In this document: piece by piece, positions 18,797-31,328 of the stretch | How positions within the stretch are numbered: the stretch's first letter is position 1 | Layout of the letters: every line of letters begins with the position of its first letter | Assembly: GCA_963828605.1 (NCBI GenBank) | Contig: CAWHER010000003.1 | Location: 194,871 to 258,870, forward strand | Direction: 5' to 3' | Length of the DNA: 64,000 nt | From: an uncultured Actinomycetota bacterium | Lineage (GTDB): Bacteria; Actinomycetota; Actinomycetes; Mycobacteriales; QHCD01 | The notes under the pieces: model-generated | Seen by the model: only the letters and a program-made list of their open reading frames with translations | What the model was told of the DNA's origin: nothing | Databases searched by the model: none | Made by a program: the position numbers and the translations under genes

Positions 18797-18854
18797 CCAT
18801 GATCGTGATCGGAAATAGCCGCGAAACGCCGTATGGATCCGATCACGATCATGG
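18797..18854 (+). repeat. 58-bp palindromic intergenic element, copy 2
   Basis: CCATGATCGTGATCGG-aaatAGCCGCGAAACGCCGTatggat-CCGATCACGATCATGG. It starts 46 nt after the GGT stop codon. Confidence 0.9.
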
Positions 18855-18981
18855 AAATAGCCCGCACCGGAAGTCTTACGAAGTGCGAAACGGCCTCGAT
18901 TTCGGCCCGTACGAGGGTGAGTATCCGCGTCAGGAACGACACGATCTCCCCTTCCGTCAGGCCGTTCAACCGAGGAGAACC

Positions 18982-20118
18982 ATGAAGAGAAGCGCCCGCC
19001 TTGCCGGCGTCGGCGGACTCGCCCTCGCCGCCACCGCAATGTTCGCCGTACCGGCGTCCGCGTCGCAGGCCGATCACCACTCCCCCCGCCCGTCCGCGGT
19101 GTTCGTCCAGACCGACGACCCGGCCGGTAACGCTGTCGTCGCCTACCGCCGGTCACCCGACGGCAGCCTGCATCAGCGCAGTACCTACGCGACCGGCGGT
19201 CTCGGCGGCGTCCTCGACGGGTCGGTCGTCGACCATCTCGCGTCTCAGGGCTCGCTCACCCTCGACCGCGCCCACGGCCTGCTCTACGCCGTCAACGCCG
19301 GAAGCAACACGGTCACCGTCTTCACCGTCCACGGCGACCGGCTCAGCCGGCACGAGGTGACCTCGTCGGGGGGCGATTTCCCCGTCAGCATCGCCGCGCA
19401 CGGCCACCTCGTCTATGTCCTCAACGCCCGTGACGGCGGCTCGATCCAGGGCTACGTGCGGGTCGGCGACACCCTGGTGCGCATCGCCGCCTGGCACCGC
19501 AGCCTCGGGCTCGATCCGACGATGACGCCGGAGTTCACCAGCACCCCCGGCCAGGTGACGTTCACGCCCGACGGCTCCAGGCTCGTCGTCACCACCAAGG
19601 CGAACGGCAACGCCATCGACGTCTTCGCCCTGCACGGATTCCGCGGCCCGTCGACCACACCGGTCGTCCACGTCGAGCCCGGCGCCGTCCCGTTCGCGCT
19701 GACCTACGACGCCCGGGGCCACCTGGTTGTCACCGAGGCCGGCACCAACGCGGTTGCCACCTTCCGCCTGCACCGCGACGGCACCCTCAGCGCCATCACC
19801 CAGGCGGCGACCGGGCAGGCGGCGACCTGCTGGATCCTGCGCGTCGGCCCGAACTTCTACGCCTCCAACGCCGGGAGCGGCACCGTCTCCGGCTACCAGG
19901 ACCACGGCACCGGTGCGCTGCAGGCGCTCGGCAACACGGCGACTGATCCCGGCACCGTCGACTCCGCAGTGACCTCCGGCGGTCGGTACGTCTACGTGCA
20001 GACGGGTGCGAACGGAATCGTGGACGAATACCGCGTCGGCAACGACGGGTCCCTGACACCGCTGGGCTCGGTCACCGTTCCGGACGCCGTCGGAGGCGAA
20101 GGGATCGCCGCCTCCTGA
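18982..20118 (+). CDS. secreted beta-propeller protein (lactonase-like, 7-bladed propeller family)
   Basis: ATG 18982 follows GAGGAG. The signal peptide is MKRSARLAGVGGLALAATAMFAVPASASQA. Blade motifs repeat (LLYAVNAGSNTVTVFTV, LVYVLNARDGGSIQGY, LVVTEAGTNAVATFRL, FYASNAGSGTVSGY, YVYVQTGANGIVDEY). The ORF-track start at 18799 is the ATG inside repeat copy 2. Confidence 0.7.
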   Translation: MKRSARLAGVGGLALAATAMFAVPASASQADHHSPRPSAVFVQTDDPAGNAVVAYRRSPDGSLHQRSTYATGGLGGVLDGSVVDHLASQGSLTLDRAHGLLYAVNAGSNTVTVFTVHGDRLSRHEVTSSGGDFPVSIAAHGHLVYVLNARDGGSIQGYVRVGDTLVRIAAWHRSLGLDPTMTPEFTSTPGQVTFTPDGSRLVVTTKANGNAIDVFALHGFRGPSTTPVVHVEPGAVPFALTYDARGHLVVTEAGTNAVATFRLHRDGTLSAITQAATGQAATCWILRVGPNFYASNAGSGTVSGYQDHGTGALQALGNTATDPGTVDSAVTSGGRYVYVQTGANGIVDEYRVGNDGSLTPLGSVTVPDAVGGEGIAAS

Positions 20119-20126
20119 GTCCCACC

Positions 20127-20172
20127 CCGGCTACCGCGGTACGGATGACCTCACCCGTACTGCGGTAGCCGG
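20127..20172. terminator. 18-bp stem hairpin between convergent genes
   Basis: CCGGCTACCGCGGTACGG-atgacctcac-CCGTACTGCGGTAGCCGG, with one G-U position. The loop contains the HK stop codon (20151-20153), and the hairpin begins 9 nt after the propeller stop. Confidence 0.6.
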
Positions 20173-21170
20173 ATCATGAACCGGCACCCGGGGTCGACGT
20201 TCTCCACCGCGATCTCACCCTGGTGCGCCTCGACCAGGCCCCGGGCGATCGCGAGGCCAAGACCCGCACCACCGTCGAGGGCGGTCTGCGGCGACCGCGC
20301 CGACTCACCCCGGAACGCGACCTCGAAGATCCGCGGCAGGTCGCCGGACGGGATCCCGCCGCAGGCGTCCTGCACCATCAGCCACGCACCGGCGGTATCG
20401 GCACCGGCGGCGACCACCACCGCGCCGTCGGTCGGGGTGTGCCGGATCGCGTTGGCCAGCAGATTGCGGACCACCCGCGATAGTTCGGCGTCGCTGCCGC
20501 GGACCACCGGCCAGGCGGTGCCTTCGGCCCGGATGACGACCCGCTTGGCCTCGGCCGCGGGCGACGTCGACGCGATCGCGTCCGACACCAGGTCGGACAA
20601 CGACACGGCGTCCCACTGCAGGGGCAGCGCCCCGGCCTGGATGCGGGACAGTTCGAACAGATCGTCGACCATCCCTGCCAACCGGTCGGTCTCGCACCGG
20701 ATCCGGCGGTGATACTCGGCGACCTGCACGGGCTCGTCCACCACCCCGTCCTCCAGGGCCTCGGCCATCGCGCGGAGCCCGGCGAGCGGGGTACGCAGGT
20801 CGTGCGACACCCACGCGACCAGCTCGCGCCGGCTCGCCTCGAGCGCCCGCTCCCGCTCCTGTGCCTCGCGCTCCCACATGCTCCGGGTGGCCAGGCGGCG
20901 GCCCAGCAGCAGCGCCGAGCCCAGGCCGACGAGACCGGCGACCGCGACGACCATCAGCACGACCCCGAGATCGTGGTCGGACAGGAACATCGCCGACGCC
21001 GTACCGACGACCCCGGAGACCACCGACAGCACGGCGACCAGCACGACCACGAAGACGTTGGCCGTGACCGACCTGCGCCGGAGCAGCCACAGCGCGACGA
21101 CACCGACGATGACGACCGGGAGGGCGCAGCCCACGGCGATCGCGCCGACCGAGAACGCGTCGGGAATCAT
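20151..21170 (-). CDS. sensor histidine kinase (membrane-embedded sensing type)
   Basis: ATG 21168-21170 overlaps the RR stop (ATGA). There are three to four TM helices with almost no extracytoplasmic loop. The H-box is [15 protein letters not shown]. HATPase motifs are [11 protein letters not shown] and [21 protein letters not shown]. The upstream part of ORF 20151..21668 is out of frame with real coding. Confidence 0.85.
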
Positions 21171-21874
21171 GTCGGCTCCTCGGCGTCGTAGCGGTAGCCG
21201 ACGCCCCAGACGGTCAGGATGCGGGTGGGTTTCGAGGCATCCAGCTCGATCTTCTCCCGGAGCCGGCGCACGTGCACGGTCACCGTCGCATGGTCGCCGA
21301 AGGTCCAGCCCCATACCCGTTCGAACAGCTCGGCCCGGCTGAACGCCGTACCGGGATGGGTGAGCAGGAAGGCCAGCAGGTCGAACTCGCGCGCGGTGAG
21401 GGTCAGTTCGGCTCCGTCGAGCGAGGCGTGGTGCGCTCCGACGTCCACGACCAGCCCCCCGTCGCGCAGCACCATCGCCGTGGGTGGCGGCGGCGCGGAG
21501 GTACGGCGCAGCACCGACCTGACCCGCAGGGCCAGCTCCCGAGGCGAGAACGGCTTGGTCAGGTAGTCGTCGGCGCCCATCTCCAGGCCGAGCACCCGGT
21601 CGGCCTCCTCGCCCAGCGCCGTGAGCATGACGATCGGCACCGGGTGGACGGCCCGCAGGGCCCGGCACACCTCCAGACCGGATAACCCGGGCAGCATCAG
21701 GTCGAGCACCACGAGGTCGGGCGGATCGGCCAGGGCGTGGGCGAGCGCGGCCTCGCCGTCGCTGACGACGTCGACAGCCAGCCGGTCGCGCTCCAGATAG
21801 CGGCGTACGACGTCGCTCACGGTCGGATCGTCGTCGACCACGAGGACCCGCGCCGACGACCGCTCGGTCGTCAC
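21167..21874 (-). CDS. OmpR/PhoB family response regulator
   Basis: Receiver domain ([10 protein letters not shown]...[14 protein letters not shown]...[31 protein letters not shown]) plus a winged-helix output domain ([31 protein letters not shown]...VWGVGYRY). Confidence 0.9.
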
Positions 21875-21893
21875 GGCCGAAGCCTAGGCGCGC

Positions 21894-21925
21894 TTGCCTG
21901 TGACATTGATGTCAGGTTCTACCGT
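21894..21925 (+). promoter_or_regulatory. MerR-type promoter/operator (site S1) upstream of the OYE gene
   Basis: A TTGCCT -35-like hexamer, a 20-nt spacer containing the dyad TGACAT-tg-ATGTCA (21901-21914), and a TACCGT -10-like hexamer. ATG 21932 lies 6 nt after the -10, implying a leaderless mRNA. It is near-identical to site S2 at 25253-25283. Confidence 0.5.
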
Positions 21926-21931
21926 CGCGCC

Positions 21932-23056
21932 ATGGCCGACGACGCGGACTACCGCCACCTTCTCGCCCCCCTCCGGCACCCTGCGCTCCGTGCAGCTCAC
22001 CGGGTGGTCATGGCACCGATGACCAGGTTCCGCGCCGACGACGACGGCGTCCCGCTGCCGAGCGTCGCGCAGTACTACGCCCAGCGGGCCGGCGCCGCCC
22101 TCGTCGTCACCGAGGGGATCTGGCCGAGCACCCTCGGCCAGTCCGACCGGCACATGCCGGGGCTCGCGACCGGGCACCAGGTCAAGGCCTGGGGCGAGGT
22201 GACGGCGGCCGTGCACGCCGAGGGCGGCACGATCTTCGCCCAGCTCATGCACTCCGGGCGCTCCTCGCATCCGGACAACCGGCTGGACGGTTCAGTGCCG
22301 CTGGCGCCGTCGGCCGTCGCGCCGCCGGGGCTGCTGCACGTCGGCGGCACCAAGCGGCCCTATCCGCTGCCCCGCGTCATGTCGCACGACGACATCGCAC
22401 AGGCCGTCGACGACCACGTGCAGGCGGCCCGCAACGCGATGGCCGCGGGTTTCGACGGCGTCGAGTTGCACGGCGCCAACGGGTACCTGATCCACCAGTT
22501 CCTGAGCGACAACACCAACCTGCGCGACGACGAGTACGGCGGTTCGCCCGCCGGCCGCATCGCCTACCCGGTCGAGGTGACGCGCGCCGTAATCGAGGCG
22601 ATCGGGGCGAGTCGGGTCGGCATCCGCCTCTCCCCCGGCAATCCCATCAACGGGCACCTCGAGGCCGACCCGGCCGGTGTGTACCGGCCGCTGGTCGCGG
22701 CGCTCTCCGACCTCGGCCTGCGCTATCTGCACCTCACCGACAACACGCGGTACGCGGCACTCGCGGACCTGCGGCCGTACTTCTCCGGCCTGCTGATCGG
22801 CAACACCGGGTTCGGCCACACCACGACACCCGAGGCGGGTGATGCGCTCGTCCGGGACGGGCTCGCCGACCTGGTGTCGTTCGGCCGCCTCTACATCGCC
22901 AACCCCGACCTGCCGGACCGACTGCGGGACGGGCTGCCGCTCGCCGGCTACGACGAGCGGACGCTCTACACCCAGGCCGACGCCGGCTACATCGACTACC
23001 CGCGGGCATCCGCGCCCGTCTACGTGCGGGAGCCGGCCGTCGCCTGCGCCGGCTAG
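21932..23056 (+). CDS. NADH:flavin oxidoreductase / alkene reductase (Old Yellow Enzyme family)
   Basis: ATG 21932. Family motifs are RVVMAPMTRFRA, QYYAQRAGAALVVTEGIWPS, GVELHGANGYLIHQFLSDNTNLRDDEYGGS and ADLVSFGRLYIANPDLPDRL. Confidence 0.9.
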   Translation: MADDADYRHLLAPLRHPALRAAHRVVMAPMTRFRADDDGVPLPSVAQYYAQRAGAALVVTEGIWPSTLGQSDRHMPGLATGHQVKAWGEVTAAVHAEGGTIFAQLMHSGRSSHPDNRLDGSVPLAPSAVAPPGLLHVGGTKRPYPLPRVMSHDDIAQAVDDHVQAARNAMAAGFDGVELHGANGYLIHQFLSDNTNLRDDEYGGSPAGRIAYPVEVTRAVIEAIGASRVGIRLSPGNPINGHLEADPAGVYRPLVAALSDLGLRYLHLTDNTRYAALADLRPYFSGLLIGNTGFGHTTTPEAGDALVRDGLADLVSFGRLYIANPDLPDRLRDGLPLAGYDERTLYTQADAGYIDYPRASAPVYVREPAVACAG

Positions 23057-23087: not shown

Positions 23088-23145
23088 CCATGATCGTGAT
23101 CGGGAAAAGCCGCGAAACGCCGTACGGATCCGATCACGATCATGG
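23088..23145 (+). repeat. 58-bp palindromic intergenic element, copy 3
   Basis: CCATGATCGTGATCGG-gaaaAGCCGCGAAACGCCGTacggat-CCGATCACGATCATGG. It starts 31 nt after the OYE stop codon. Confidence 0.9.
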
Positions 23146-23263
23146 CGGGTCGGGGAGATGCCACGGTCGGGTCGGTGATCTTTGCGTGGACGTGAGGTTA
23201 CGGGAGTCTGAACGGCCGAGCGGAATCATGCGGGCCGGGGCGGTGCTCTGGTACCACGAGTGA

Positions 23264-24427
23264 GTGACTGGATCGAATCTCTTCATCCTGGTGATGGTGG
23301 TCATCGTCGGATTGGGCTTCGACTTCACGAACGGTTTTCATGACTCGGCGAATGCGATGGCGACGTCGATCGCGACCGGCGCCCTGAAGCCGAAGATCGC
23401 GGTCGCCATTTCCGCACTCGCGAATCTGGTCGGGGCATTCCTGTCGCTGGCGGTCGCGGCCACCATCGCCAAGGGCATCGTCACCCAGACCGACGTCACG
23501 ATCACGGTCGTCTTCGCGGGCCTGGCCGGCGGCGTCGCATGGAACGTCACGACGTGGTACCTGGGTATCCCGTCGAGCTCGTCGCACGCCCTGATCGGCG
23601 GGGTGATCGGCGCCACCATCATCCACGCCGGCAGCAGCGCCGTGCTCTGGCACGGGGTCGCGTCGAAGGTATTCATCCCGGCGGTCTTCGCCCCGATCAT
23701 CGCCGGGTTTGTCACCGCGGCTGCGACGTGGCTCGCCTACCGGCTCACCCGCAAGACCAAACGCGGGGTGCGCGCGGCCGGTTTCCGATGGGGGCAGGTC
23801 GGCACCGCGACCCTGGTCTCGCTGGCGCACGGCACCAACGACGCGCAGAAGACCATGGGTGTACTGACCTTGGCCCTGGTCGCCAACGGCAGCATCTCCA
23901 AGTCCGCGACCACACCGGACTGGGTCATCATCGCCTGCGCACTGGCGATCTCGATGGGTACCTACGTCGGTGGTTGGCGGATCATCCGCACCCTGGGCAA
24001 GGGATTGATCGAGATCGAGGCTCCGCAGGGTTTCGCCTCTCAGGCCACGTCGGCCGCAGTCATCCTGTCCTCGACCCATTTCGGTATTCCGCTGTCGACG
24101 ACGCAGGTGTGCAGCGGCTCGGTGGTCGGCGCAGGCCTCGGTCGGGCACAGCCCGTGCGCTGGATCGTGTTCGGGCGGATGGTGGTGACCTGGGTGGTGA
24201 CCCTGCCGGCCGCCGGGGCGGTCGGCGCCCTCACCTACGCCGTCGTCAACGGTATCGGCGGGAACCTGGGCGTGACCTTGATGGCTCTGGCGTTGGCGGC
24301 TTATTGCGCAGGCATCTACGCGCTGTCACGCCGCACTACGGTCAACGCCACGAATGTCAACGACGCCTGGGACGAGAAGGGCGGGACCTCACACGAGCCC
24401 GCCGGCGCCGGGGTGGTGAGTAGCTGA
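23264..24427 (+). CDS. inorganic phosphate transporter, PiT family
   Basis: Signature motifs GFDFTNGFHDSANAMATSI and LAHGTNDAQKTMGV, with a multi-TM profile. The start is GTG. Confidence 0.9.
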   Translation: MTGSNLFILVMVVIVGLGFDFTNGFHDSANAMATSIATGALKPKIAVAISALANLVGAFLSLAVAATIAKGIVTQTDVTITVVFAGLAGGVAWNVTTWYLGIPSSSSHALIGGVIGATIIHAGSSAVLWHGVASKVFIPAVFAPIIAGFVTAAATWLAYRLTRKTKRGVRAAGFRWGQVGTATLVSLAHGTNDAQKTMGVLTLALVANGSISKSATTPDWVIIACALAISMGTYVGGWRIIRTLGKGLIEIEAPQGFASQATSAAVILSSTHFGIPLSTTQVCSGSVVGAGLGRAQPVRWIVFGRMVVTWVVTLPAAGAVGALTYAVVNGIGGNLGVTLMALALAAYCAGIYALSRRTTVNATNVNDAWDEKGGTSHEPAGAGVVSS

Positions 24428-24687
24428 TGGTGCTTGCCGACTCGTACGTCGAATGGGCGTCGATGTGGAAGATCCTGGTGATCAGCATCGCCGCGGGCGC
24501 CGGTCTGGTGACGGTCTATTCGATCGGCCTGCTGGCCCTGTCGGCGTCGGGATACCTCCGGCGCGGCGACACTGAGCAGGCCGCACCGCGGCGCAACGTC
24601 GTGGCGCTGGTCGCGGCCGCCACCTGCCTTCTCGTGGTGGCCGCCGGCGCCGCCTACGGTATCCGGGTGATCTTTACCAAGGGCTAG
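24427..24687 (+). CDS. small two-TM membrane protein, translationally coupled to PiT
   Basis: ATG 24427 overlaps the pit stop (TGATG). 86 aa with two hydrophobic helices (WKILVISIAAGAGLVTVYSIGLLAL and VVALVAAATCLLVVAAGAAYGI). No family recognised. Confidence 0.5.
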   Translation: MVLADSYVEWASMWKILVISIAAGAGLVTVYSIGLLALSASGYLRRGDTEQAAPRRNVVALVAAATCLLVVAAGAAYGIRVIFTKG

Positions 24688-24745
24688 CCGCCCGCTTGTC
24701 CGAACTCACGGTGGCGGTCGACCGACGTGGGTGAGAGGAGTAGTC

Positions 24746-25249
24746 ATGACCAGCTGGCACAACAGCCTGGGTGAGGACGGCCAGCGCCTCACCATTCTCA
24801 GCGTCCTGCCCCGTGCTCCCCTCACCCCCGCAGAAATCCAGGCCGCCGGCGAACTATCCCTCGGTCAGGCGATCGACGAGCTGTTCCGGATCGCGGGCGA
24901 GGACGGAAAAGCGCGCGTCATCACCCTCGATGTGACGTGGCAGGGCGAGGAACCCGTTTTCCTCGCCGAGGAGGAGGTGTCGCTGCGGGATCTGGCCGAT
25001 CGGCTGTACGGGTCCTTCGGTAGCGACGGTCTATCGAGTACCGTGCTACGGGTGCTCGGACCCGACGACGACCCGCTTGGCTTCCTCGCCACGGTCGACG
25101 CGGGCACTGCGGAGGACGACGCCGGTCGGGGCCCGCTGGCTGCACTGCTCCGCTTCCGCGAAGCGGTCCACCGGCTCTTCGGCGGTTCGGCCGACGAGGG
25201 GATCCCGCCGACCGTCCTCAGCCTGCTCTGCGGTCCGACCCGGCGTTGA
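24746..25249 (+). CDS. acidic cytoplasmic hypothetical protein
   Basis: ATG 24746 follows GAGAGGAG. 167 aa, Asp/Glu-rich, no TM segment. Codon usage is consistent with coding. No family recognised. Confidence 0.5.
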   Translation: MTSWHNSLGEDGQRLTILSVLPRAPLTPAEIQAAGELSLGQAIDELFRIAGEDGKARVITLDVTWQGEEPVFLAEEEVSLRDLADRLYGSFGSDGLSSTVLRVLGPDDDPLGFLATVDAGTAEDDAGRGPLAALLRFREAVHRLFGGSADEGIPPTVLSLLCGPTRR

Positions 25250-25252
25250 GCC

Positions 25253-25283
25253 TTGCACCTGACACTATGTCAGGTCCTACCGT
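25253..25283 (+). promoter_or_regulatory. MerR-type promoter/operator (site S2), 15 nt beyond the 3' end of merR
   Basis: TTGCAC, a 19-nt spacer containing the perfect dyad CCTGACA-cta-TGTCAGG (25258-25274), then TACCGT. The right half plus -10 (TGTCAGGTCCTACCGTCGC) matches S1 (TGTCAGGTTCTACCGTCGC) at 18 of 19 positions. Confidence 0.45.
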
Positions 25284-25297
25284 CGCAGCGCGGCCGG

Positions 25298-25666
25298 CTA
25301 GCTCGACGACCCGGTGGGACGGGCGTAGCGGGCCCAGACCTCGTCGAGCACGCCCTGGGCACGTGAGAGGTCGCGCATCATCTCGTCCAGGCGCTGCCGC
25401 TCGCGGCACAGCTCGACCTGCATGGTGCCCGCCAGGTCCTCCCGGTCGCGCTCGAGGTAGCGGAACAGCGCCGCCATCTTCGAGCTGCACAGCCCGGCCG
25501 CGAACAGCTCCTGGATCTCGATGACCCGCTCGACCGCATCGTCGGCGTACTCCCGCTGACCGCCGGCCGATCGGGTGCTGGTGAGGAGACCCTGCTGCTC
25601 GTAGTAGCGCAGCGATCTCCGGCTGACCGCGGTCCGCTCCGAGAGCTCGCCGATCCGGATAGCCAT
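25298..25666 (-). CDS. MerR family transcriptional regulator
   Basis: ATG 25664-25666 follows GAAGGGAG. The N-terminal HTH is MAIRIGELSERTAVSRRSLRYYEQQGLL, followed by a coiled-coil dimerisation helix. It has only two Cys (C60, C87), so it is not the Hg-binding triad type. Confidence 0.85.
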   Translation of the reverse strand: MAIRIGELSERTAVSRRSLRYYEQQGLLTSTRSAGGQREYADDAVERVIEIQELFAAGLCSSKMAALFRYLERDREDLAGTMQVELCRERQRLDEMMRDLSRAQGVLDEVWARYARPTGSSS

Positions 25667-25689
25667 GCCGCTCCCTTCGTCCCCGGAGA

Positions 25690-25815
25690 TCACACGTGCT
25701 TGATGATGCCTCCGTCAATGAGATATTCGGCACCGGTGATGTTGTTCGGCCCGGCGATGAAGGTGATCAGGCGGGCGACCTCGTCCGGGGTGGACAGCCG
25801 GCCGGTCGGCGCACC
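25690..25815 (-). pseudogene. remnant of a short-chain dehydrogenase/reductase (C-terminal ~41 codons only)
   Basis: Manual translation gives GAPTGRLSTPDEVARLITFIAGPNNITGAEYLIDGGIIKHV*, the typical SDR C-terminus. The upstream sequence in the same frame has no SDR similarity and hits a stop at 25891-25893. Confidence 0.55.
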
Positions 25816-25890
25816 GAGGTAAAGGCTCCGGCAACGGCTGAACCGACGTCGACCGTTGCTCCGCTCGGCCGGCCGGGCCGGGCGCAGCGC

Positions 25891-26580
25891 TCACAGTCCC
25901 CAGAAGGGCCCGGAGAGCCCGACGCCGCGTAGGTAGTCGGCGGCCGAGGCCGGGTCCCGGCGGACATAGCCGCTGTCGAGGCGCCCGTCGTACCAGTGGG
26001 CGGCGAGCCGCCACAACGTGCCGAGATCCATCACGTACCCGCGGTCGGCTCCGATCTCCCCGAGCCAGGCGTCGACGCAGGCCTCGGAGCAGAAGAGGCG
26101 CTGGTGGCCGCAGGTGTGCAGGACGTCGTCCCACATGGCTGCGGCGGGGACGAGAAAATGCGCCACCTGTTCACCCTCCGGTGGAGCCGCGCGGGTCACG
26201 GTCCACGCGTGCGGTCGGGCACAGGCGGGACATCGGGTCGCCACCAGAACCTCGGCCGCATCGGGTACCAGGTGCGGCAGTGCGAAGGAGTCCCAGGCGC
26301 AGCCGCCCCACCACAGGGTGCGTGGGCCCATGGCGCTGAACCCCAACGGCACGGCGGAGAACGGATGCGCCAGTACCACCCGCGGTCGGGCGGATCCCGC
26401 ACCGGCCCCGGCCCCGGCCCCGGCTAGGACAAGGTGCCGGTCGCGGGCCAGCCGGTCAAGACCCACCTCGACCTGGTCTGCCGTGGCGCCGAGCAGCCCG
26501 GCGAGCCCTTCGACGTCGGGAACCGCCCCTGTCTCGGCGAACGACCGGTACACCGTGAGGCGCAGATCCTCCACATCCAC
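25891..26580 (-). CDS. alkylmercury lyase (MerB) family-like protein
   Basis: GTG start. It has an N-terminal wHTH-like domain and a WWGGCAWDSFALP motif, matching the MerB Cys-x-x-Asp catalytic context. Further Cys clusters are present (RCPACARP, HTCGHQRLFCSEAC). An internal (GA)5 tract is encoded by a CCGGCC hexanucleotide repeat. Confidence 0.7.
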   Translation of the reverse strand: MDVEDLRLTVYRSFAETGAVPDVEGLAGLLGATADQVEVGLDRLARDRHLVLAGAGAGAGAGSARPRVVLAHPFSAVPLGFSAMGPRTLWWGGCAWDSFALPHLVPDAAEVLVATRCPACARPHAWTVTRAAPPEGEQVAHFLVPAAAMWDDVLHTCGHQRLFCSEACVDAWLGEIGADRGYVMDLGTLWRLAAHWYDGRLDSGYVRRDPASAADYLRGVGLSGPFWGL

Positions 26581-26633
26581 ACGCCGATGATGCCCGATGC
26601 GGGTTCTCGGTCGCCCGGTGGCAACGTGCCCGG

Positions 26634-27437
26634 TCAGTCGAGGAAGCCGGCGAGGGCGGACAGCAGCAGGTCGGTGCGCCTGGTCACCTGCATGTGGGTC
26701 GTGCCGGGAAACACGGCGAGTTGCGCCCCGGGGATGAGCTGCTGCATGAGAGCGGCGTGCTCGACGGTCACGAAGTCGTGGTCCCCCAGCACGAGCAGGG
26801 TCGGTGCCTGAATGCCGGCGAGCTGCTCGTCCGACCAGCCCTCGAGGTCGGCGTTCGAGCTCGACAGGGTGGCGAGGAAGTCGTCGAAATGATCCGGATG
26901 CGGGGACAGCCGCAGGTAGGCGTCGCGGAAATCGGCGAAGTCCTGCTGCGTCGGCAGCCGGGTCGAGGTCGCGTACCTGGCCGGGTCGCTGAGATCCTCA
27001 TGCATCCCATCCGGGTGGACGCTGGCCGAGATCGGCACCACCGACCGGACCCGGGCCGGATGGTTGACGGCGAGTTCGAGCGCCACCGCGCCGCCCATGC
27101 TGTGCCCGAGGACGTCTGCCCTGTCGATACCCAGCTGGTCCAGCAGCGCGACGACGTCCCCGGCCAGCGCCGCCGGGGTGATCGCGCGATCGATATCGGC
27201 GGTGCGGCCGTGTCCCTGCAGTTCCACACCGATGACCAGGTGCCCGGCGGACAGTGCCGGGATGACGCCGGCGAAGTTCAGGTCGATCGTCAACATGCCA
27301 CCGTGCAGCAGGACGAGGGGGCTGCCCTGCCCGTGCAGCTCGTAGTACATGTGCAGGCCGTTCACGTCGGCGTAACCGCTGCATCCGGCGGGCCGGGTGT
27401 CGGCGGTGTCGATGTCCGGGTGCTCGTGAGTCGACAT
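26634..27437 (-). CDS. alpha/beta hydrolase
   Basis: ATG 27435-27437. It has an LVLLHGG oxyanion region, the nucleophile elbow GHSMGG, and a C-terminal HM (His) context (FPGTTHMQV). The ORF-track start at 27623 is too long. Confidence 0.85.
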   Translation of the reverse strand: MSTHEHPDIDTADTRPAGCSGYADVNGLHMYYELHGQGSPLVLLHGGMLTIDLNFAGVIPALSAGHLVIGVELQGHGRTADIDRAITPAALAGDVVALLDQLGIDRADVLGHSMGGAVALELAVNHPARVRSVVPISASVHPDGMHEDLSDPARYATSTRLPTQQDFADFRDAYLRLSPHPDHFDDFLATLSSSNADLEGWSDEQLAGIQAPTLLVLGDHDFVTVEHAALMQQLIPGAQLAVFPGTTHMQVTRRTDLLLSALAGFLD

Positions 27438-27612
27438 CGCGAGATCCTCTCGAAGTCTGAGTTGTGCCCTTTGGGTGTCGGTGCCGTCCGGCACCGTCGT
27501 GACTGCGTCGAGCGGCGGGGGCCGTTTTCGACACCTCGACGGAATCTCGCCCGAGCAGCGACCGCGATAGGGTCGGCGCCGGATCATCGCCGCGGAACGG
27601 AGACACGCACAG

Positions 27613-28752
27613 ATGAGGATCACGGCCGTCGAGGCGGTTCCCGTGGACCGCTACCTGCTGACTCTGGTGCACACCGACGCGGGGATCACCGGTGTCGGCG
27701 AGTCCGGGACCTGGGGCCACCTGGAGGCCTCGCAGGCGGCACTCGAGAAGTTCGGCGCGTACCTGGTCGGGCAGGACCCCCGCCGCATCGAGCACCACTG
27801 GAACGTGATGTACCGGTCGTCGCACTTCCGCGGCGCGGCCATCATGGGCGCACTCTCGGCGATCGACATCGCGCTGTGGGACATCAAGGGCAAGGCGCTC
27901 GGCGTGCCCGTCCACGACCTGCTCGGCGGCCGGGTCCGGGACAAGGCGCGGGTCTACAGCCACGTGTTCGGCTCGACGACCGAAGAGCTCGTCGACGGAT
28001 GCGTCGCGGCGAAACAGGCCGGCTTCACCGCGGTCGGGCACCTCACGCCGTTCCTCGACGTGTCGATCGACGAGCCGTACTTCGAGACCCACGCGAAGAA
28101 GATGGGTACGGCGATCGACCGGGTCCGCCGCTACCGCGAGGCGGTCGGCGACGACGTCGACCTGTGCATCGAGATCCACCGCCGGCTCACCCCCGCCGAG
28201 GCCGTCGTCCTGGCGCGCGGCATCGAACAGTACCGGCCGATGTTCTACGAAGACCCGATCCTGCCGGACAACTTCGACGCCATGGGGTGGGTCGCCGACC
28301 GCATCTCCATCCCGATCGCCACCGGCGAACGACTGCATACGCTGCAGGAGTTCGAGATGCTGCTGGCGCGCGGCGCGGTGCAGTACGTCCGGCCGGACGT
28401 CTGCCTCGCCGGGGGCATCACCGGCACGAAGAAGATCGCCGCCGCGGCCGAGGCGCGCGGCGTCCAGGTGGTGCCGCACAACCCGTTGTCACCGATCAGC
28501 ACCGCCGCCTGCCTGCAGATCGCCGCGTGCATCCCCAACTTCGCCATCCAGGAATACCCGCTGGGAGAAGGCGTCCCGCCGAAGAGCGCGATGGTCGAGA
28601 CGCCGTTGGCCGTGAAGGACGGGTTCCTGCTCATCCCGGACGCGCCGGGCATCGGTATCGAGTTCTCCGCCGACTCCGCGCGGAAGCACCCGCCGGTGCC
28701 GCGCCCGATCGGCACCCGGTTGCACGAGGACGGCTCGGTCGTCGATCAGTAG
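27613..28752 (+). CDS. enolase superfamily dehydratase (mandelate racemase/MLE family, D-galactonate dehydratase-like)
   Basis: Intact 379 aa. The N-terminal capping domain is ITGVGESGTWGH. Metal-ligand contexts are DLCIEIHRRL, FYEDP and ATGERL, followed by VVPHNPLSP. Confidence 0.85.
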   Translation: MRITAVEAVPVDRYLLTLVHTDAGITGVGESGTWGHLEASQAALEKFGAYLVGQDPRRIEHHWNVMYRSSHFRGAAIMGALSAIDIALWDIKGKALGVPVHDLLGGRVRDKARVYSHVFGSTTEELVDGCVAAKQAGFTAVGHLTPFLDVSIDEPYFETHAKKMGTAIDRVRRYREAVGDDVDLCIEIHRRLTPAEAVVLARGIEQYRPMFYEDPILPDNFDAMGWVADRISIPIATGERLHTLQEFEMLLARGAVQYVRPDVCLAGGITGTKKIAAAAEARGVQVVPHNPLSPISTAACLQIAACIPNFAIQEYPLGEGVPPKSAMVETPLAVKDGFLLIPDAPGIGIEFSADSARKHPPVPRPIGTRLHEDGSVVDQ

Positions 28753-30262
28753 TTGCCCTCGGCGGTGACCGGCTCCAGCAGGTCCGCGACCTCCCCCTGC
28801 CCGAGGTGACGGGCCCAGCCGAGCGGCGTGGCGTCGAATCGTTCGTCGTGGAGATCGGGGTCGGCGCCGAGGCGGAGGAGGGTCCGGGCCAGCTCGACGT
28901 TTCCCGACTCCGCGGCCCCGTGCAGCGCCGTGTGCCAGGGCTGCTCGACGGGTAGGTCGGTCCTGCCCCGGGCGTTGATGTCGAAGCCGTTGGCGACCAG
29001 GAGTTCGACGGCGCCCGGGCCACCCGACGCCGATGCCCAGACGACTAGGGCCGGGCGGGCCGCGCGGGCGGCCTCGGCAACTCCGGGATGCGCCGCCTGC
29101 ACCCGGTCGAGACCACCGGGGTCGGCGGCGAGTGCGGCAGCCACGAACGCGTCGACCGGCTCCAGGGCCGGCACTGGTAGGCCGCGGGCCACGAGAAGGT
29201 CGACCAGTGCGCCGTGACCGGTGGTGGCCGCCAGCGCGCCTGCGGTGATGCCGTCGGCGAACGGTGCGGCGGCGTCAACGCCGTGATCGAGGAGCAGTTC
29301 CACCCGCTCGGCCATTCCGTGGCTCAGCGCCCAACGCAGCTGACCACGGACCATCTGCCCGGGCGTCGTCGATGGCGGCGCCGAGCCGCCGGCGCCACGG
29401 TCCGCCGGTATCGGCGCCGAGGCCGAACTCGAAGAGCACCTCGAGGTGGTCGTTGTCCGGGCCGAACATGCGGTTGTAGAGCGCCTGCCCGTCGTTGGGG
29501 TCGGCACCCGCCTCGAGAAGCAGCCGCGCCAGGGCGAGCGAGTGCGGGTGGCGGGGTTGACGGACCGGACCCTGTTCGCCTTCGCCGAACACCCCGGTCA
29601 GCACGGTGAACGGGCTGGGCAGCCCGTGCCAGAGGTAACCGGCGTCGGCGTCGGCGCCGGCGTCCAGCAGGAGCCGCACCGAGTCCACGACCGCGTCGCG
29701 GCGAAACGTCCGGGTCGTGGCGGGCGTAGGCAAGGTAGAGCAGCGGCGTCCACCGATACGGGCCGCCCTCCCGACGTGCGGCGGCGGGGTCGTCGGCGAG
29801 CAGCCGCCGCACGGCGTCCACGTCGGCGCCGGCGGCCGCCGCGAAGATGTCGTCCCGGGTGATCTCCGGTCGCTCGGACAGGAGTTGGCGGGCTCTGCGC
29901 CGACGGTCGGGGTGGTCGTCGCGCTCGTAGGACAAGCACGCGAAGCGCAGGAACTCGTCGGCGGACCCTTCCGGTCCGACATCCGGAGCGACGTCGGCGG
30001 GATATCGACTGTACCGCTCGACCGCCTCGACGTAGCGCTTCAGCGGGGTCCAGCTGGAGAAGCCGTAGCGGCGGGCGACGACGAGGCGGGCGTCGCTCAG
30101 GGCGAACCCGCGGGGACCGTCGGATCCGAGCCCGACGGGATGGCGTTCGGAGACTTCCGCCAGCGCCTCAGGAACCTCGGCCCGCACCGACCGGAGCAGA
30201 TCCTTGGCCTGGTTGCGAAGCTGTTCGAGATTCGGGCGGTCGGGCAGGGGGACGGTCGGCAT
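28746..30262 (-). pseudogene. ankyrin repeat domain protein, frameshifted
   Basis: ATG 30260-30262 follows GAGAGGAG (MPTVPLPDRPNLEQLRNQAKDLLRSV...). The middle is in a second frame (VDSVRLLLDAGADADAGYLWHGLPSPFTVLTGVFGEGEQGP...LARLLLEAGADPNDGQALYN). The C-terminus is in a third frame (LLLDHGVDAAAPF..., LLVANGFDINARG..., TALHGAAESGNVELARTLLRLGADPDLHD...). At least two frame changes. Confidence 0.65.
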
Positions 30263-30465
30263 CGCTACTCCTCTCGTGTGCCTGCGGTCCGCATCGCCAG
30301 GCCGAAAGGAGGAAACATCGGTCGTCGCGTCGATCGCCTTCTCAGGTGGGCTCTGCCCTGTCCGCGGACCGGAGGCCCCCTGCGGGCCTATCGGGACAGT
30401 AGCCTGATCCCGGCCCGGCCCGCCAGTGGCAGACGACCCGTCGTACTGGTGGACTCCGTGCCGAC

Positions 30466-31328
30466 ATGGCACGCGCGGAGACGACCGAGAGGGCAGGTGC
30501 GGTGCGGCGGTTTGCGGATCGGGTTGCGGTGGTCACCGGTGGTGGCCGGGGAATCGGACTGGCGATCGTCCTGCGGCTGGGCGCGGAGGGCGCGGCGGTC
30601 CTCGTCGCCGACCTCGATCCGGCGAGCGCGGACGAGGCGGCGCGCTCGGTCGTGCAGGCCGGTGGGCGGGCGGTCGGAGTGGAGTGCGATGTCACCGACC
30701 GGAAGTCGGTCGACGCGGCGATGGCAGCCGCCGTCGAGAGCTTCGGGGAGTGGATGTCCTGGTCGCCAATGTCGGCATCGGTTCGGGAACCTCGTTCGAG
30801 GACATCGACGAATCGACCTGGGCGCACGACGCCGTACCGACGCTGCACGGCACGGTCCTGAGCATCCAGGCCGCGCTGCCGCACCTGATGGCGTCACCGG
30901 CCGCATCGGTCGTCATGATCGGCTCGGTCAACGGGCTCGCCGCATCGGGTGACCTCGTCTACTCCACCGCCAAGGCGGCCCTGCCCGTGCTGGCCCAGAA
31001 CCTGTCGGTCATCTACGGCCGGCGACTGATGGACCGGCGGGCCCCGGCGGGCAACCCCGTCCGCTTCAACGTCGTCGCGCCGGGCACCATCCGGACGCGC
31101 GTTTGGGACGACCAGCAGGAGTCACTCGCCGCGATCTCCTCGCTCTACCCGACCGGCCGGATCGGCGAACCCGAGGACGTCGCGGCGGCGGTCGCCTTCC
31201 TCGCCTCCGACGACGCGGCCTGGGTCACCGGGGTCGTCCTCCCGGTCGACGGCGGGCTGCTGACCGGACCGTCGATGGCCTTCTACAACGCCGAGGCCGC
31301 GGTCGCCGACCGCGCGCAGCCGCGCTGA
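30466..31328 (+). pseudogene. SDR family oxidoreductase with a single frameshift
   Basis: N-terminus VAVVTGGGRGIGLAIVLRLGAEGAAVLVADL...ESFG in ORF 30466..30861. The remainder (GVDVLVANVGIG..., YSTAKAAL, PGTIRT, AFLASDDAAWVTGVVLPVDGG) is in ORF 30426..31328. The switch is at the G4 run 30745-30748, where FGGVDVL needs G5. Confidence 0.8.

What the first reader, a model, noticed from the sequence alone, without database searches (positions are those of the whole stretch)
25253..25283. Second copy of the MerR-type promoter points antisense into the merR gene
Site S2 (TTGCAC, a 19-nt spacer with the perfect dyad CCTGACA-cta-TGTCAGG, then TACCGT) matches S1 at 18 of 19 positions through the right half-site and the -10. 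It shares the -35 prefix CTTGC and the left half-site core TGACA. The half-site spacer differs by one nt.

S2 lies in the 48-nt gap between the stop of a + strand hypothetical gene (25249) and the stop of merR (25298). It is oriented so that transcription would run antisense through merR. No credible + strand ORF follows it.

I see three possibilities. S2 may drive antisense autoregulation of merR. It may be a leftover from a rearrangement of an originally divergent merR-target pair. It may be a pure binding or roadblock site.
Basis: partly seen in the sequence, partly recalled or inferred. Interest (0 to 1): 0.6.

Follow-up and report, generated by a model that had tools for sequence, protein, structure and literature searches.

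The report
Orphaned MerR-type promoter beside merR
The second MerR-type promoter is real, but it is the old promoter of the reductase (OYE) gene, left at its original site when that gene moved 3.3 kb away and a block carrying merR took its place, so it is most likely a decaying leftover rather than a designed antisense switch.

Summary
S2 (25253-25283, +) reads TTGCAC, a 19-nt spacer holding the dyad ACCTGACA-cta-TGTCAGGT, then TACCGT. It fills the 48-nt gap between the stops of a 167-aa gene (hyp167) and merR, and no coding frame follows it. S1 and S2 are the only such sites in the 4.26-Mb assembly.

Synteny explains S2. Two same-genus genomes have PiT - small TM - hyp167 - S - leaderless OYE - enolase-family gene. 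S starts 3 nt after the hyp167 stop, exactly where S2 lies. In this genome OYE, with a promoter copy (S1), sits upstream of PiT. A 2.3-kb block (merR, SDR fragment, MerB-like gene, hydrolase) occupies the old OYE slot. So S2 is the ancestral OYE promoter without its gene.

In 99 loci with homologous merR genes, every strong site lies upstream of merR and points away from it. All 76 strong sites have a 4-nt dyad centre and a 20-nt spacer. S2 alone has a 3-nt centre. An independent public contig shows the same 3-nt centre, so it is not a MAG polishing error.

S2 is most likely a relic with weak or lost MerR control. Antisense feedback on merR is not excluded, but nothing supports it.

The parts
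25253..25283 (+). S2, the orphaned MerR-type promoter-operator. It consists of -35 TTGCAC (25253-25258), dyad ACCTGACA/CTA/TGTCAGGT (25257-25275) and -10 TACCGT (25278-25283). The spacer is 19 nt and the dyad centre 3 nt. The predicted start site is about 25290.
   Evidence: The matrix score is 52.3 when 1 nt is restored at the centre and negative without a gap. Position and left half are identical to the OYE promoter of relatives. An independent contig reproduces it.
21894..21925 (+). S1, the working copy of the promoter. It reads TTGCCT, a 20-nt spacer with TGACA-ttga-TGTCA, then TACCGT, and the leaderless OYE ATG follows 6 nt later.
   Evidence: matrix score 45.9. The geometry is that of the 62 leaderless targets found.
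21932..23056 (+). OYE / NemA-like NADH:flavin oxidoreductase, the relocated target gene.
   Evidence: Pfam PF00724, E 2.8e-63. NCBIfam N-ethylmaleimide reductase subfamily. It is 88-90% identical at protein level to the OYE that follows S in G001 and G003. It is the only orthologous copy in the assembly; one distant paralogue is 29% identical.
23264..25249 (+). PiT phosphate transporter (23264-24427), 86-aa membrane protein (24427-24687) and hyp167 (24746-25249). This is the conserved block that ends 3 nt before S in all three genomes.
   Evidence: DNA identity to G001 and G003 is 90-93% through 25275.
25287..27558 (-). A 2.3-kb block that occupies the old OYE slot. It holds merR (25298-25666), an SDR C-terminal fragment (25693-25830), a MerB-like gene (25891-26580) and an alpha/beta hydrolase (26634-27434).
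   Evidence: Homology to relatives stops at 25275 and resumes at 27559. The components lie on three different contigs in G001 and in G003.
25298..25666 (-). merR, a MerR-family regulator and the only one of this subfamily in the assembly. Its 3' end faces S2.
   Evidence: PF13411 and PF00376. It is 45-58% identical to homologues that all sit divergently beside an S site. It lacks the 'PC' cysteine present in 79 of 80 homologues.
27613..28752 (+). Enolase-superfamily gene. It follows OYE in G003 (47-nt gap) and G001 (about 360 nt with a broken MarR-like frame between) and is now separated from S2 by the inverted block.
18871..21893 (-). Translocated block (beta-propeller, histidine kinase, response regulator) whose right edge is fused to S1-OYE at 21892/21893.
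   Evidence: The block is 88% identical to G001:C9. The G001 flanks lie 143 nt apart at G000 C1:1061800-1061943.

Best explanation
S2 is the original promoter-operator of the OYE reductase gene, still at its ancestral position 3 nt after the hyp167 stop.

In this lineage the promoter and gene were copied or moved 3.3 kb upstream, giving S1-OYE fused to a translocated two-component block. The OYE reading frame at the old site was replaced by a 2.3-kb block of relocated genes. The last gene of that block, merR, ends 14 nt after the S2 -10 hexamer.

Shown:
- the synteny;
- the breakpoints, at about 25276-25287 and 27559;
- the duplication of S;
- the uniqueness of the 3-nt dyad centre.

Inferred:
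- S2 no longer has a selected function.
- The hexamers remain, so RNA polymerase may start weakly near 25290 and make a short non-coding RNA antisense to merR.
- The loss of 1 nt between the half-sites puts the two MerR recognition helices out of register, so MerR control is probably weak or lost.
- The 19-nt spacer is still too long for a strong unassisted promoter.
For: (1) G001 and G003, both of the same genus, have PiT - smallTM - hyp167 - S - OYE - enolase. Window 23161-25275 aligns with their PiT-to-left-half-of-S stretch, 21892-23042 with their S plus OYE, and 27559 onward with the enolase gene. The relatives read TGA GGC TTGCAC CTGACACCGATGTSAGGTTT TAACCT CACCGC ATG. The S2 -35 and left arm (TTGCACCTGACAC) match this at 13 of 13 positions.

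(2) The assembly has one orthologous OYE (one distant paralogue, 29% identical), one merR of this type and two S sites. G001 and G003 also each have two sites that flank these genes, one at OYE and one at their unlinked merR; G003 shows one further pattern match on another contig that was not examined.

(3) In 99 homologous merR loci, every strong site lies immediately upstream of merR and points away from it. None lies at the 3' end of merR. Of 75 sites matching a promoter pattern there, 62 have a leaderless start codon within 9 nt after the -10.

(4) All 76 strong sites have a 4-nt centre. S2 has 3 nt. S1, the copy that still has a gene, keeps 4 nt and the 20-nt spacer.

(5) The 3-nt centre and the hyp167-S2-merR-SDR'-MerB order are reproduced in an independent Logan contig.

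(6) No coding frame, known RNA family or terminator follows S2.

(7) In Tn501 Pmer, 1-bp deletions anywhere in the spacer, including the dyad centre, give promoters that MerR no longer affects (PMC11049809).

(8) Clean block translocation is documented in this same region.
Against:
- S2 keeps perfect 8-bp arms and consensus hexamers. Its half-site score (48.5) is higher than that of S1 (40.1), so apart from the centre it does not look decayed.
- The cognate regulator gene landing right beside an orphaned copy of its own operator is an unexplained coincidence. It hints at a mechanistic or selective link.
- Polarity rests on two relatives. OYE and enolase identities place G001 and G003 as sisters, so strict outgroup support is lacking. 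More distant genomes with hyp167 have neither S-OYE nor merR after it.
Confidence: 0.72

Rival explanations
1. Functional antisense feedback. MerR still binds S2. On induction it fires a non-coding transcript through merR, and this lowers merR expression by polymerase collision or RNA pairing.
For: The hexamers and 8-bp arms are intact, and the orientation points into merR. This merR has no S site upstream, so it lacks the usual autoregulatory operator. The operator and its regulator gene lie together in a way chance does not readily explain.
Against: None of 76 homologous operators has a 3-nt centre. None of 99 loci has an S site at the 3' end of merR. The position is fully explained by ancestry. 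1-bp spacer deletions uncouple Pmer from MerR. There are no expression data.
Confidence: 0.12
2. Protein-binding or structural element without promoter activity. This could be a MerR decoy or roadblock, or a hairpin that ends the two convergent transcripts (hyp167 and merR).
For: The dyad folds as an 8-bp hairpin on both RNA strands, and it lies exactly between two convergent stop codons.
Against: There is no U-tract. The fold z-scores are only -0.9 and -1.9, and the terminator scan finds nothing. The same dyad sits after hyp167 in relatives, where it is plainly the OYE promoter.
Confidence: 0.08
3. S2 still serves the enolase-family gene, which followed OYE in the ancestral operon, by read-through across the 2.3-kb inverted block.
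For: In G003 the enolase-family gene starts 47 nt after the OYE stop. This suggests an ancestral S-OYE-enolase transcript.
Against: Read-through would need 2.3 kb of untranslated antisense RNA running against four convergent genes. By general knowledge such RNA is normally stopped by Rho and by collisions.
Confidence: 0.04
4. Assembly artefact. The S2-merR junction or the 1-nt-short centre is an error of a long-read metagenome assembly.
For: The genome is a 3-contig MAG with 65% completeness. Several 1-nt indels specific to the window occur in coding DNA when compared with both relatives.
Against: An independent contig from run ERR11523651 is identical over 3268 nt apart from one substitution. 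It includes S2 and all junctions from hyp167 to the hydrolase gene.
Confidence: 0.03

Closest known systems
Actinobacterial merR / S-promoter / leaderless OYE modules. These are uncharacterised. They were seen here in Streptomyces, Kribbella, Mycolicibacterium, Micromonospora and others.
   Same: They share the hexamers, the dyad arms (cTTGAAcCTGACA....TGTCAgnTTCTACCGT), the regulator subfamily and the target family.
   Different: In those modules merR is upstream and divergent, the dyad centre is 4 nt, the spacer is 20 nt, and a gene starts 6-7 nt after the -10. S2 has a 3-nt centre, a 19-nt spacer and no gene, and it faces the 3' end of merR.
Tn21/Tn501 merR-PmerT operator-promoter and its relatives (SoxR-soxS, CueR-copA, ZntR-zntA)
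   Same: The -35/-10 spacer is overlong (19-20 bp) with the regulator's dyad inside it. Activation by DNA distortion is the established mechanism for this family.
   Different: Those sites control a downstream operon and, divergently, the regulator gene itself. S2 controls no gene. The resemblance in how it works is inferred from sequence only.
Engineered 1-bp spacer deletions of Pmer (PMC11049809)
   Same: One bp is lost inside the spacer or dyad of a MerR-type promoter.
   Different: In Pmer the change is 19 to 18 bp and gives a strong constitutive promoter. In S2 the change is 20 to 19 bp, still 2 bp beyond the optimum, so weak activity is expected. This was not tested.
Orphan or relic promoters left by gene loss or relocation, and antisense transcription from them
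   Same: A complete promoter without its gene fires, if at all, into a convergent neighbour. Same-genus relatives show another case: their merR-linked S points into the 3' end of an F420-type oxidoreductase gene.
   Different: Here the convergent neighbour happens to be the cognate regulator gene.

Membership tests
MerR-type (long-spacer, dyad-in-spacer) promoter | -35 and -10 hexamers separated by 19-20 bp | tested here: met
   TTGCAC, 19 nt, TACCGT.
MerR-type (long-spacer, dyad-in-spacer) promoter | Inverted repeat for the regulator centred in the spacer | tested here: met
   ACCTGACA-CTA-TGTCAGGT at 25257-25275.
MerR-type (long-spacer, dyad-in-spacer) promoter | Cognate MerR-family regulator encoded in the genome | tested here: met
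   merR at 25298-25666. The HTH residues are conserved with homologues that sit beside S sites.
MerR-type (long-spacer, dyad-in-spacer) promoter | Regulator binds the site and activates transcription on signal | not testable with these tools
   This needs EMSA, reporter assays or 5'-end mapping.
Actinobacterial merR-OYE 'S' operator subfamily | Half-sites TGACA/TGTCA separated by 4 nt, giving a 20-nt spacer | tested here: not met
   All 76 strong sites have a 4-nt centre. S2 has 3 nt. An independent contig confirms this.
Actinobacterial merR-OYE 'S' operator subfamily | Site lies immediately upstream of merR and divergent from it | tested here: not met
   S2 lies 14 nt beyond the merR stop. 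None of 99 loci shows that placement.
Actinobacterial merR-OYE 'S' operator subfamily | A target gene starts downstream, usually leaderless 6-7 nt after the -10 | tested here: not met
   There is no start codon and no coding signal after S2. 62 of 75 homologous sites have a leaderless gene.
Actinobacterial merR-OYE 'S' operator subfamily | Descent from an S site (orthology by position) | tested here: met
   S2 occupies the same place, 3 nt after the hyp167 stop, as the OYE promoter of G001 and G003, and the left half is identical.
Intrinsic (bidirectional) terminator | G+C-rich hairpin followed by a U-tract | tested here: not met
   The scan finds no terminator-like site. The hairpin has no U-tract and its fold z-scores are not significant.

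The most novel reading that the evidence does not exclude
S2 has been put to a new use as a MerR-responsive antisense promoter. When MerR is activated at S1 it also fires S2 into its own gene, giving delayed negative feedback by convergent transcription. This would replace the classical divergent autoregulatory operator that this merR has lost.
Probability: 0.1. Interest if true: 0.55.

Novelty: new variant of a known kind. Interest (0 to 1): 0.3.

Why it matters
On its own this is ordinary genome evolution: a promoter stranded by a rearrangement. It has three uses.

First, it is a dated natural experiment on MerR-type promoters. Two sister copies exist in one genome. The copy that kept its gene kept the 4-nt dyad centre that all 76 surveyed sites share. 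The copy that lost its gene lost one base there.

Second, it brings to light a very conserved and, as far as two full-text searches and NCBIfam and PDB look-ups showed, uncharacterised actinobacterial regulon: merR, a 20-nt-spacer promoter and a leaderless OYE or deacetylase-like gene. Its operator can now be written down.

Third, it warns annotators that a perfect-looking regulator site next to the regulator gene can be a relic.

Tried and rejected
- my first degenerate pattern was one base short and found nothing, not even S1 or S2. It is void.
No DNA reads or RNA-seq could be laid on S2, and read laying could not be used.
- the consensus scan found no promoter or terminator, and the hairpin energies are not significant. 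The terminator reading was set aside.
- no Rfam family matches near S2.
- three metagenome contigs (L124, L125, L127) carry [merR-like, divergent][S identical to S2 except centre CTGA][SDR gene]. I tested whether the SDR fragment next to the window's merR comes from such a module. It does not: their SDR has a different C-terminus. So no inversion model is supported.
- contig L126 has a 3-nt-centre site matching S2 at 29 of 31 positions, placed before a MerR-HTH/methyltransferase gene. The only similar HTH in G000 (C2:14895, upstream of a gene I read as adenosylhomocysteinase) has no such site. Cross-regulation of S2 by another MerR class has no support.
- the 3' flank of S2 (CCGTCGC-AGCGCGG-CCGGCTAGC) resembles the 3' end of OYE (CCGTCGC-CTGCG-CCGGCTAGC). 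This would fit deletion of the old OYE copy between two CCGTCGC repeats. Matches of that size are common genome-wide, so it remains a lead only.
- exact-protein look-ups for OYE and the response regulator found no independent contig for the S1 side, probably because gene callers chose other start codons.
- I could not derive the [S2 forward][merR reverse] order from a classical [merR reverse][S forward][target forward] module by any single inversion, deletion or crossover at the palindrome. The sequence of events stays unresolved.

Full report
**1. The observation**

TTGCAC lies at 25253-25258 and TACCGT at 25278-25283, with 19 nt between them. The spacer contains the perfect inverted repeat ACCTGACA (25257-25264), centre CTA, and TGTCAGGT (25268-25275). 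The site fills the 48-nt gap between the TGA of a 167-aa gene without Pfam match (hyp167, 24746-25249, +) and the stop of merR (25666 to 25298, -).

S1 at 21894-21925 is TTGCCT, 20 nt with TGACA-ttga-TGTCA, then TACCGT. The ATG of an Old Yellow Enzyme gene follows 6 nt later, so the gene is leaderless. The two sites share TGTCAGGTyCTACCGTCGC at 18 of 19 positions.

S1 and S2 are the only matches in the 4.26-Mb assembly. This holds for an exact pattern and for a weight matrix of hexamers plus half-sites that ignores centre length. After S2 there is no coding signal. The one long + frame has the codon-position GC profile of the antisense shadow of merR. Rfam, the promoter consensus scan and the terminator scan found nothing there.

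**2. What the regulator family normally looks like**

I collected 99 loci with merR homologues, 45-58% identical to the window's protein. Nineteen came from relatives and 80 from species-representative genomes, including Streptomyces, Kribbella, Mycolicibacterium and Micromonospora.

The pattern is very uniform. Immediately upstream of merR, pointing away from it, lies cTTGAAcCTGACAnnnnTGTCAgnTTCTACCGT. Of 75 sites that match a promoter pattern, 62 are followed within 9 nt by the start codon of a gene of at least 100 codons. That gene is often an OYE, or a protein beginning '..FDYSPITERP..'.

No strong site lies at the 3' end of merR in any locus. All 76 strong sites have a 4-nt dyad centre and hence a 20-nt spacer. 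None has 2, 3, 5 or 6 nt.

S2 scores 52.3 on the 32-nt matrix if one base is restored at the centre. The training sites range from 38 to 59. Without a gap the score is negative. S2 is therefore a near-consensus member with exactly one defect.

**3. Where S2 comes from**

Only two other genomes, both of the same genus (G001 and G003), have hyp167, at 86-91% protein identity. Both have the order PiT - small membrane protein - hyp167 - S - OYE - enolase-superfamily gene.

Their S begins 3 nt after the hyp167 stop, as S2 does. It reads TTGCAC CTGACACCGATGTSAGGTTT TAACCT CACCGC ATG(OYE).

The window aligns with them as follows:
- 23161 to 25275, that is into the right arm of S2;
- 27559 onward, the enolase gene;
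- separately, 21892-23042 (S1 plus OYE) aligns with their S plus OYE.

So the single ancestral S is represented twice here. S2 is at the old place without a gene. S1 is with OYE, 3.3 kb upstream. The assembly has only one orthologous OYE.

The 2.3 kb that now fills the old OYE slot (about 25287-27558) holds merR, a 46-codon C-terminal fragment of an SDR, a MerB-like gene and an alpha/beta hydrolase. All four are on the minus strand. Orthologues of these genes lie on three different contigs in G001 and in G003.

The merR of the relatives sits in a LysR - merR - S - LLM oxidoreductase locus. In G000 only the LysR side of that locus remains.

The left neighbour of S1 is also a newcomer. The block 18871-21893 (beta-propeller, kinase, response regulator) is 88% identical to a block on G001 contig 9. 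The G001 flanks of that block lie 143 nt apart in G000, at C1:1061800-1061943. This is a clean translocation, joined to S1-OYE with a 2-nt overlap. The stretch between the GGT gene and the enolase gene is thus an accretion of relocated blocks, and S2 is one of its scars.

**4. Polarity and caveats**

The PiT-hyp167 segment places G000 closest to G003: 93.0% identity, against 91.9% for G001-G003 and 90.7% for G000-G001. That makes the G001/G003 order ancestral by parsimony. OYE and enolase identities instead group G001 with G003. More distant genomes with hyp167 have neither S-OYE nor merR after it.

The orphan state of S2 and the two copies of S in G000 make the G000 order the derived one. I could not reconstruct the exact events. 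No single inversion, deletion or crossover at the palindrome converts a classical divergent module into [S2 forward][merR reverse].

A resemblance between the 3' flank of S2 and the 3' end of OYE hints that merR first landed convergent to OYE. The old OYE copy would then have been deleted between two CCGTCGC repeats. The match is not significant genome-wide.

It remains unexplained why the cognate regulator gene, of all genes, ended up beside this site.

**5. Is the 1-nt-short centre real?**

The relatives identified by name (G001 and the more distant hyp167 loci) are long-read soil MAGs labelled 'uncultured Actinomycetota, MFD...', so the window genome is presumably one too. The window has several 1-nt indels in coding DNA that neither relative shares, so an assembly error was a real possibility.

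However, a 3268-nt Logan contig from run ERR11523651 matches window 23833-27100 with one substitution and no gap. It carries TTGCACCTGACACTATGTCAGGTCCTACCGT. I take the deletion as real.

**6. How it most likely works now**

Established knowledge of the MerR family says the dimer binds the dyad inside an overlong spacer and realigns the hexamers on signal.

In Tn501 Pmer, removing 1 bp anywhere in the spacer, including the dyad centre, gives promoters whose activity MerR barely affects (PMC11049809).

In S2 the same kind of loss shifts the half-sites by one base pair. I estimate this as about 34 degrees of twist and 3.4 angstroms. None of 76 natural sites tolerates that spacing. The spacer is still 19 nt, 2 nt beyond the optimum.

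My inference is a weak promoter, poorly controlled by MerR or not at all. At most it yields a little non-coding RNA antisense to merR starting near 25290. S1 kept the 4-nt centre and the leaderless geometry and is the working operator.

The regulator itself also looks altered. It lacks the 'PC' cysteine found in 79 of 80 homologues and has a 4-residue deletion next to that position.

**7. Comparison and verdict**

S2 works like, and descends from, a MerR-type promoter-operator. It fails three features of its own subfamily: the 4-nt centre, the placement upstream of merR, and a downstream gene. It is best called an orphaned, one-base-shortened variant.

Same-genus relatives show a milder version of orphaning. 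Their merR-linked S points into the 3' end of an oxidoreductase gene, but there S still sits upstream of merR, where it can still serve merR's own control.

The antisense-feedback idea is not excluded (about 10%) and would be new for this family, but nothing here supports it beyond geometry.

Interest is low to moderate.

Noticed in passing
window 25298-25666 (-): This MerR lacks the 'LPC' cysteine present in 79 of 80 homologues. It reads FRYLE there, with a 4-residue deletion beside it. The signal-sensing part may be lost or changed, while the DNA-binding helix-turn-helix is conserved.
   Followed up: partly
window 18871-21893; G000 C1:1061800-1061943: A 3-kb block (beta-propeller, membrane histidine kinase, response regulator) has been cleanly cut out of its ancestral locus, which is intact in G001 C9 and G003 C46. 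It is pasted next to S1-OYE with a 2-nt overlap. The response-regulator GTG lies 19 nt from the S1 -35, where merR normally sits, so MerR bound at S1 could also affect that operon.
   Followed up: partly
window 18797-18854 and 23088-23145: Two copies of the 58-bp REP-like hairpin bracket the inserted stretch (two-component block plus S1-OYE). G001 has a copy elsewhere in the syntenic region. A role in the rearrangements is possible but was not tested.
   Followed up: no
L028-L107 (80 actinobacterial genomes): There is a very conserved module for which I found no characterised member: merR, the promoter cTTGAAcCTGACAnnnnTGTCAgnTTCTACCGT with an invariant 20-nt spacer, and a leaderless target. 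Targets are OYE/NemA-like reductases, proteins starting '..FDYSPITERP..', or MFS transporters. No NCBIfam equivalog cut-off is reached for the regulator.
   Followed up: partly
L004 1864-1895 and L005 1641-1672 (G001, G003): In the same-genus relatives the merR-linked S promoter has no co-directional gene. It points into the 3' end of an F420-type (LLM) oxidoreductase gene. Orphaned S promoters therefore recur in this genus.
   Followed up: partly
L126 (WNFI01532064.1), reverse strand, site 362-392: A natural 3-nt-centre, 19-nt-spacer site (TTGCACCTGACA-CAG-TGTCAGGTCCTACCGT) matches S2 at 29 of 31 positions. It sits 7 nt before the start of a MerR-HTH/SAM-methyltransferase gene in an unrelated metagenome contig.
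   Followed up: partly
window 29367, 30747, 31954, 32871, 33270: Single-base indels are present in the window but in neither same-genus relative, inside coding DNA. For example, frames 28746-29507 and 29324-30472 overlap as if one gene were split. They are either assembly errors or pseudogenes, and they fit the 65% completeness of a 3-contig assembly.
   Followed up: partly
window 25693-25830 (-): The SDR C-terminal fragment (..STPDEVARLITFIAGPNNITGAEYLIDGGIIKHV*) ends 26 nt before the merR ATG. It does not derive from the SDR genes that are targets of the related merR subfamily (L012, L014, L016, L124).
   Followed up: partly
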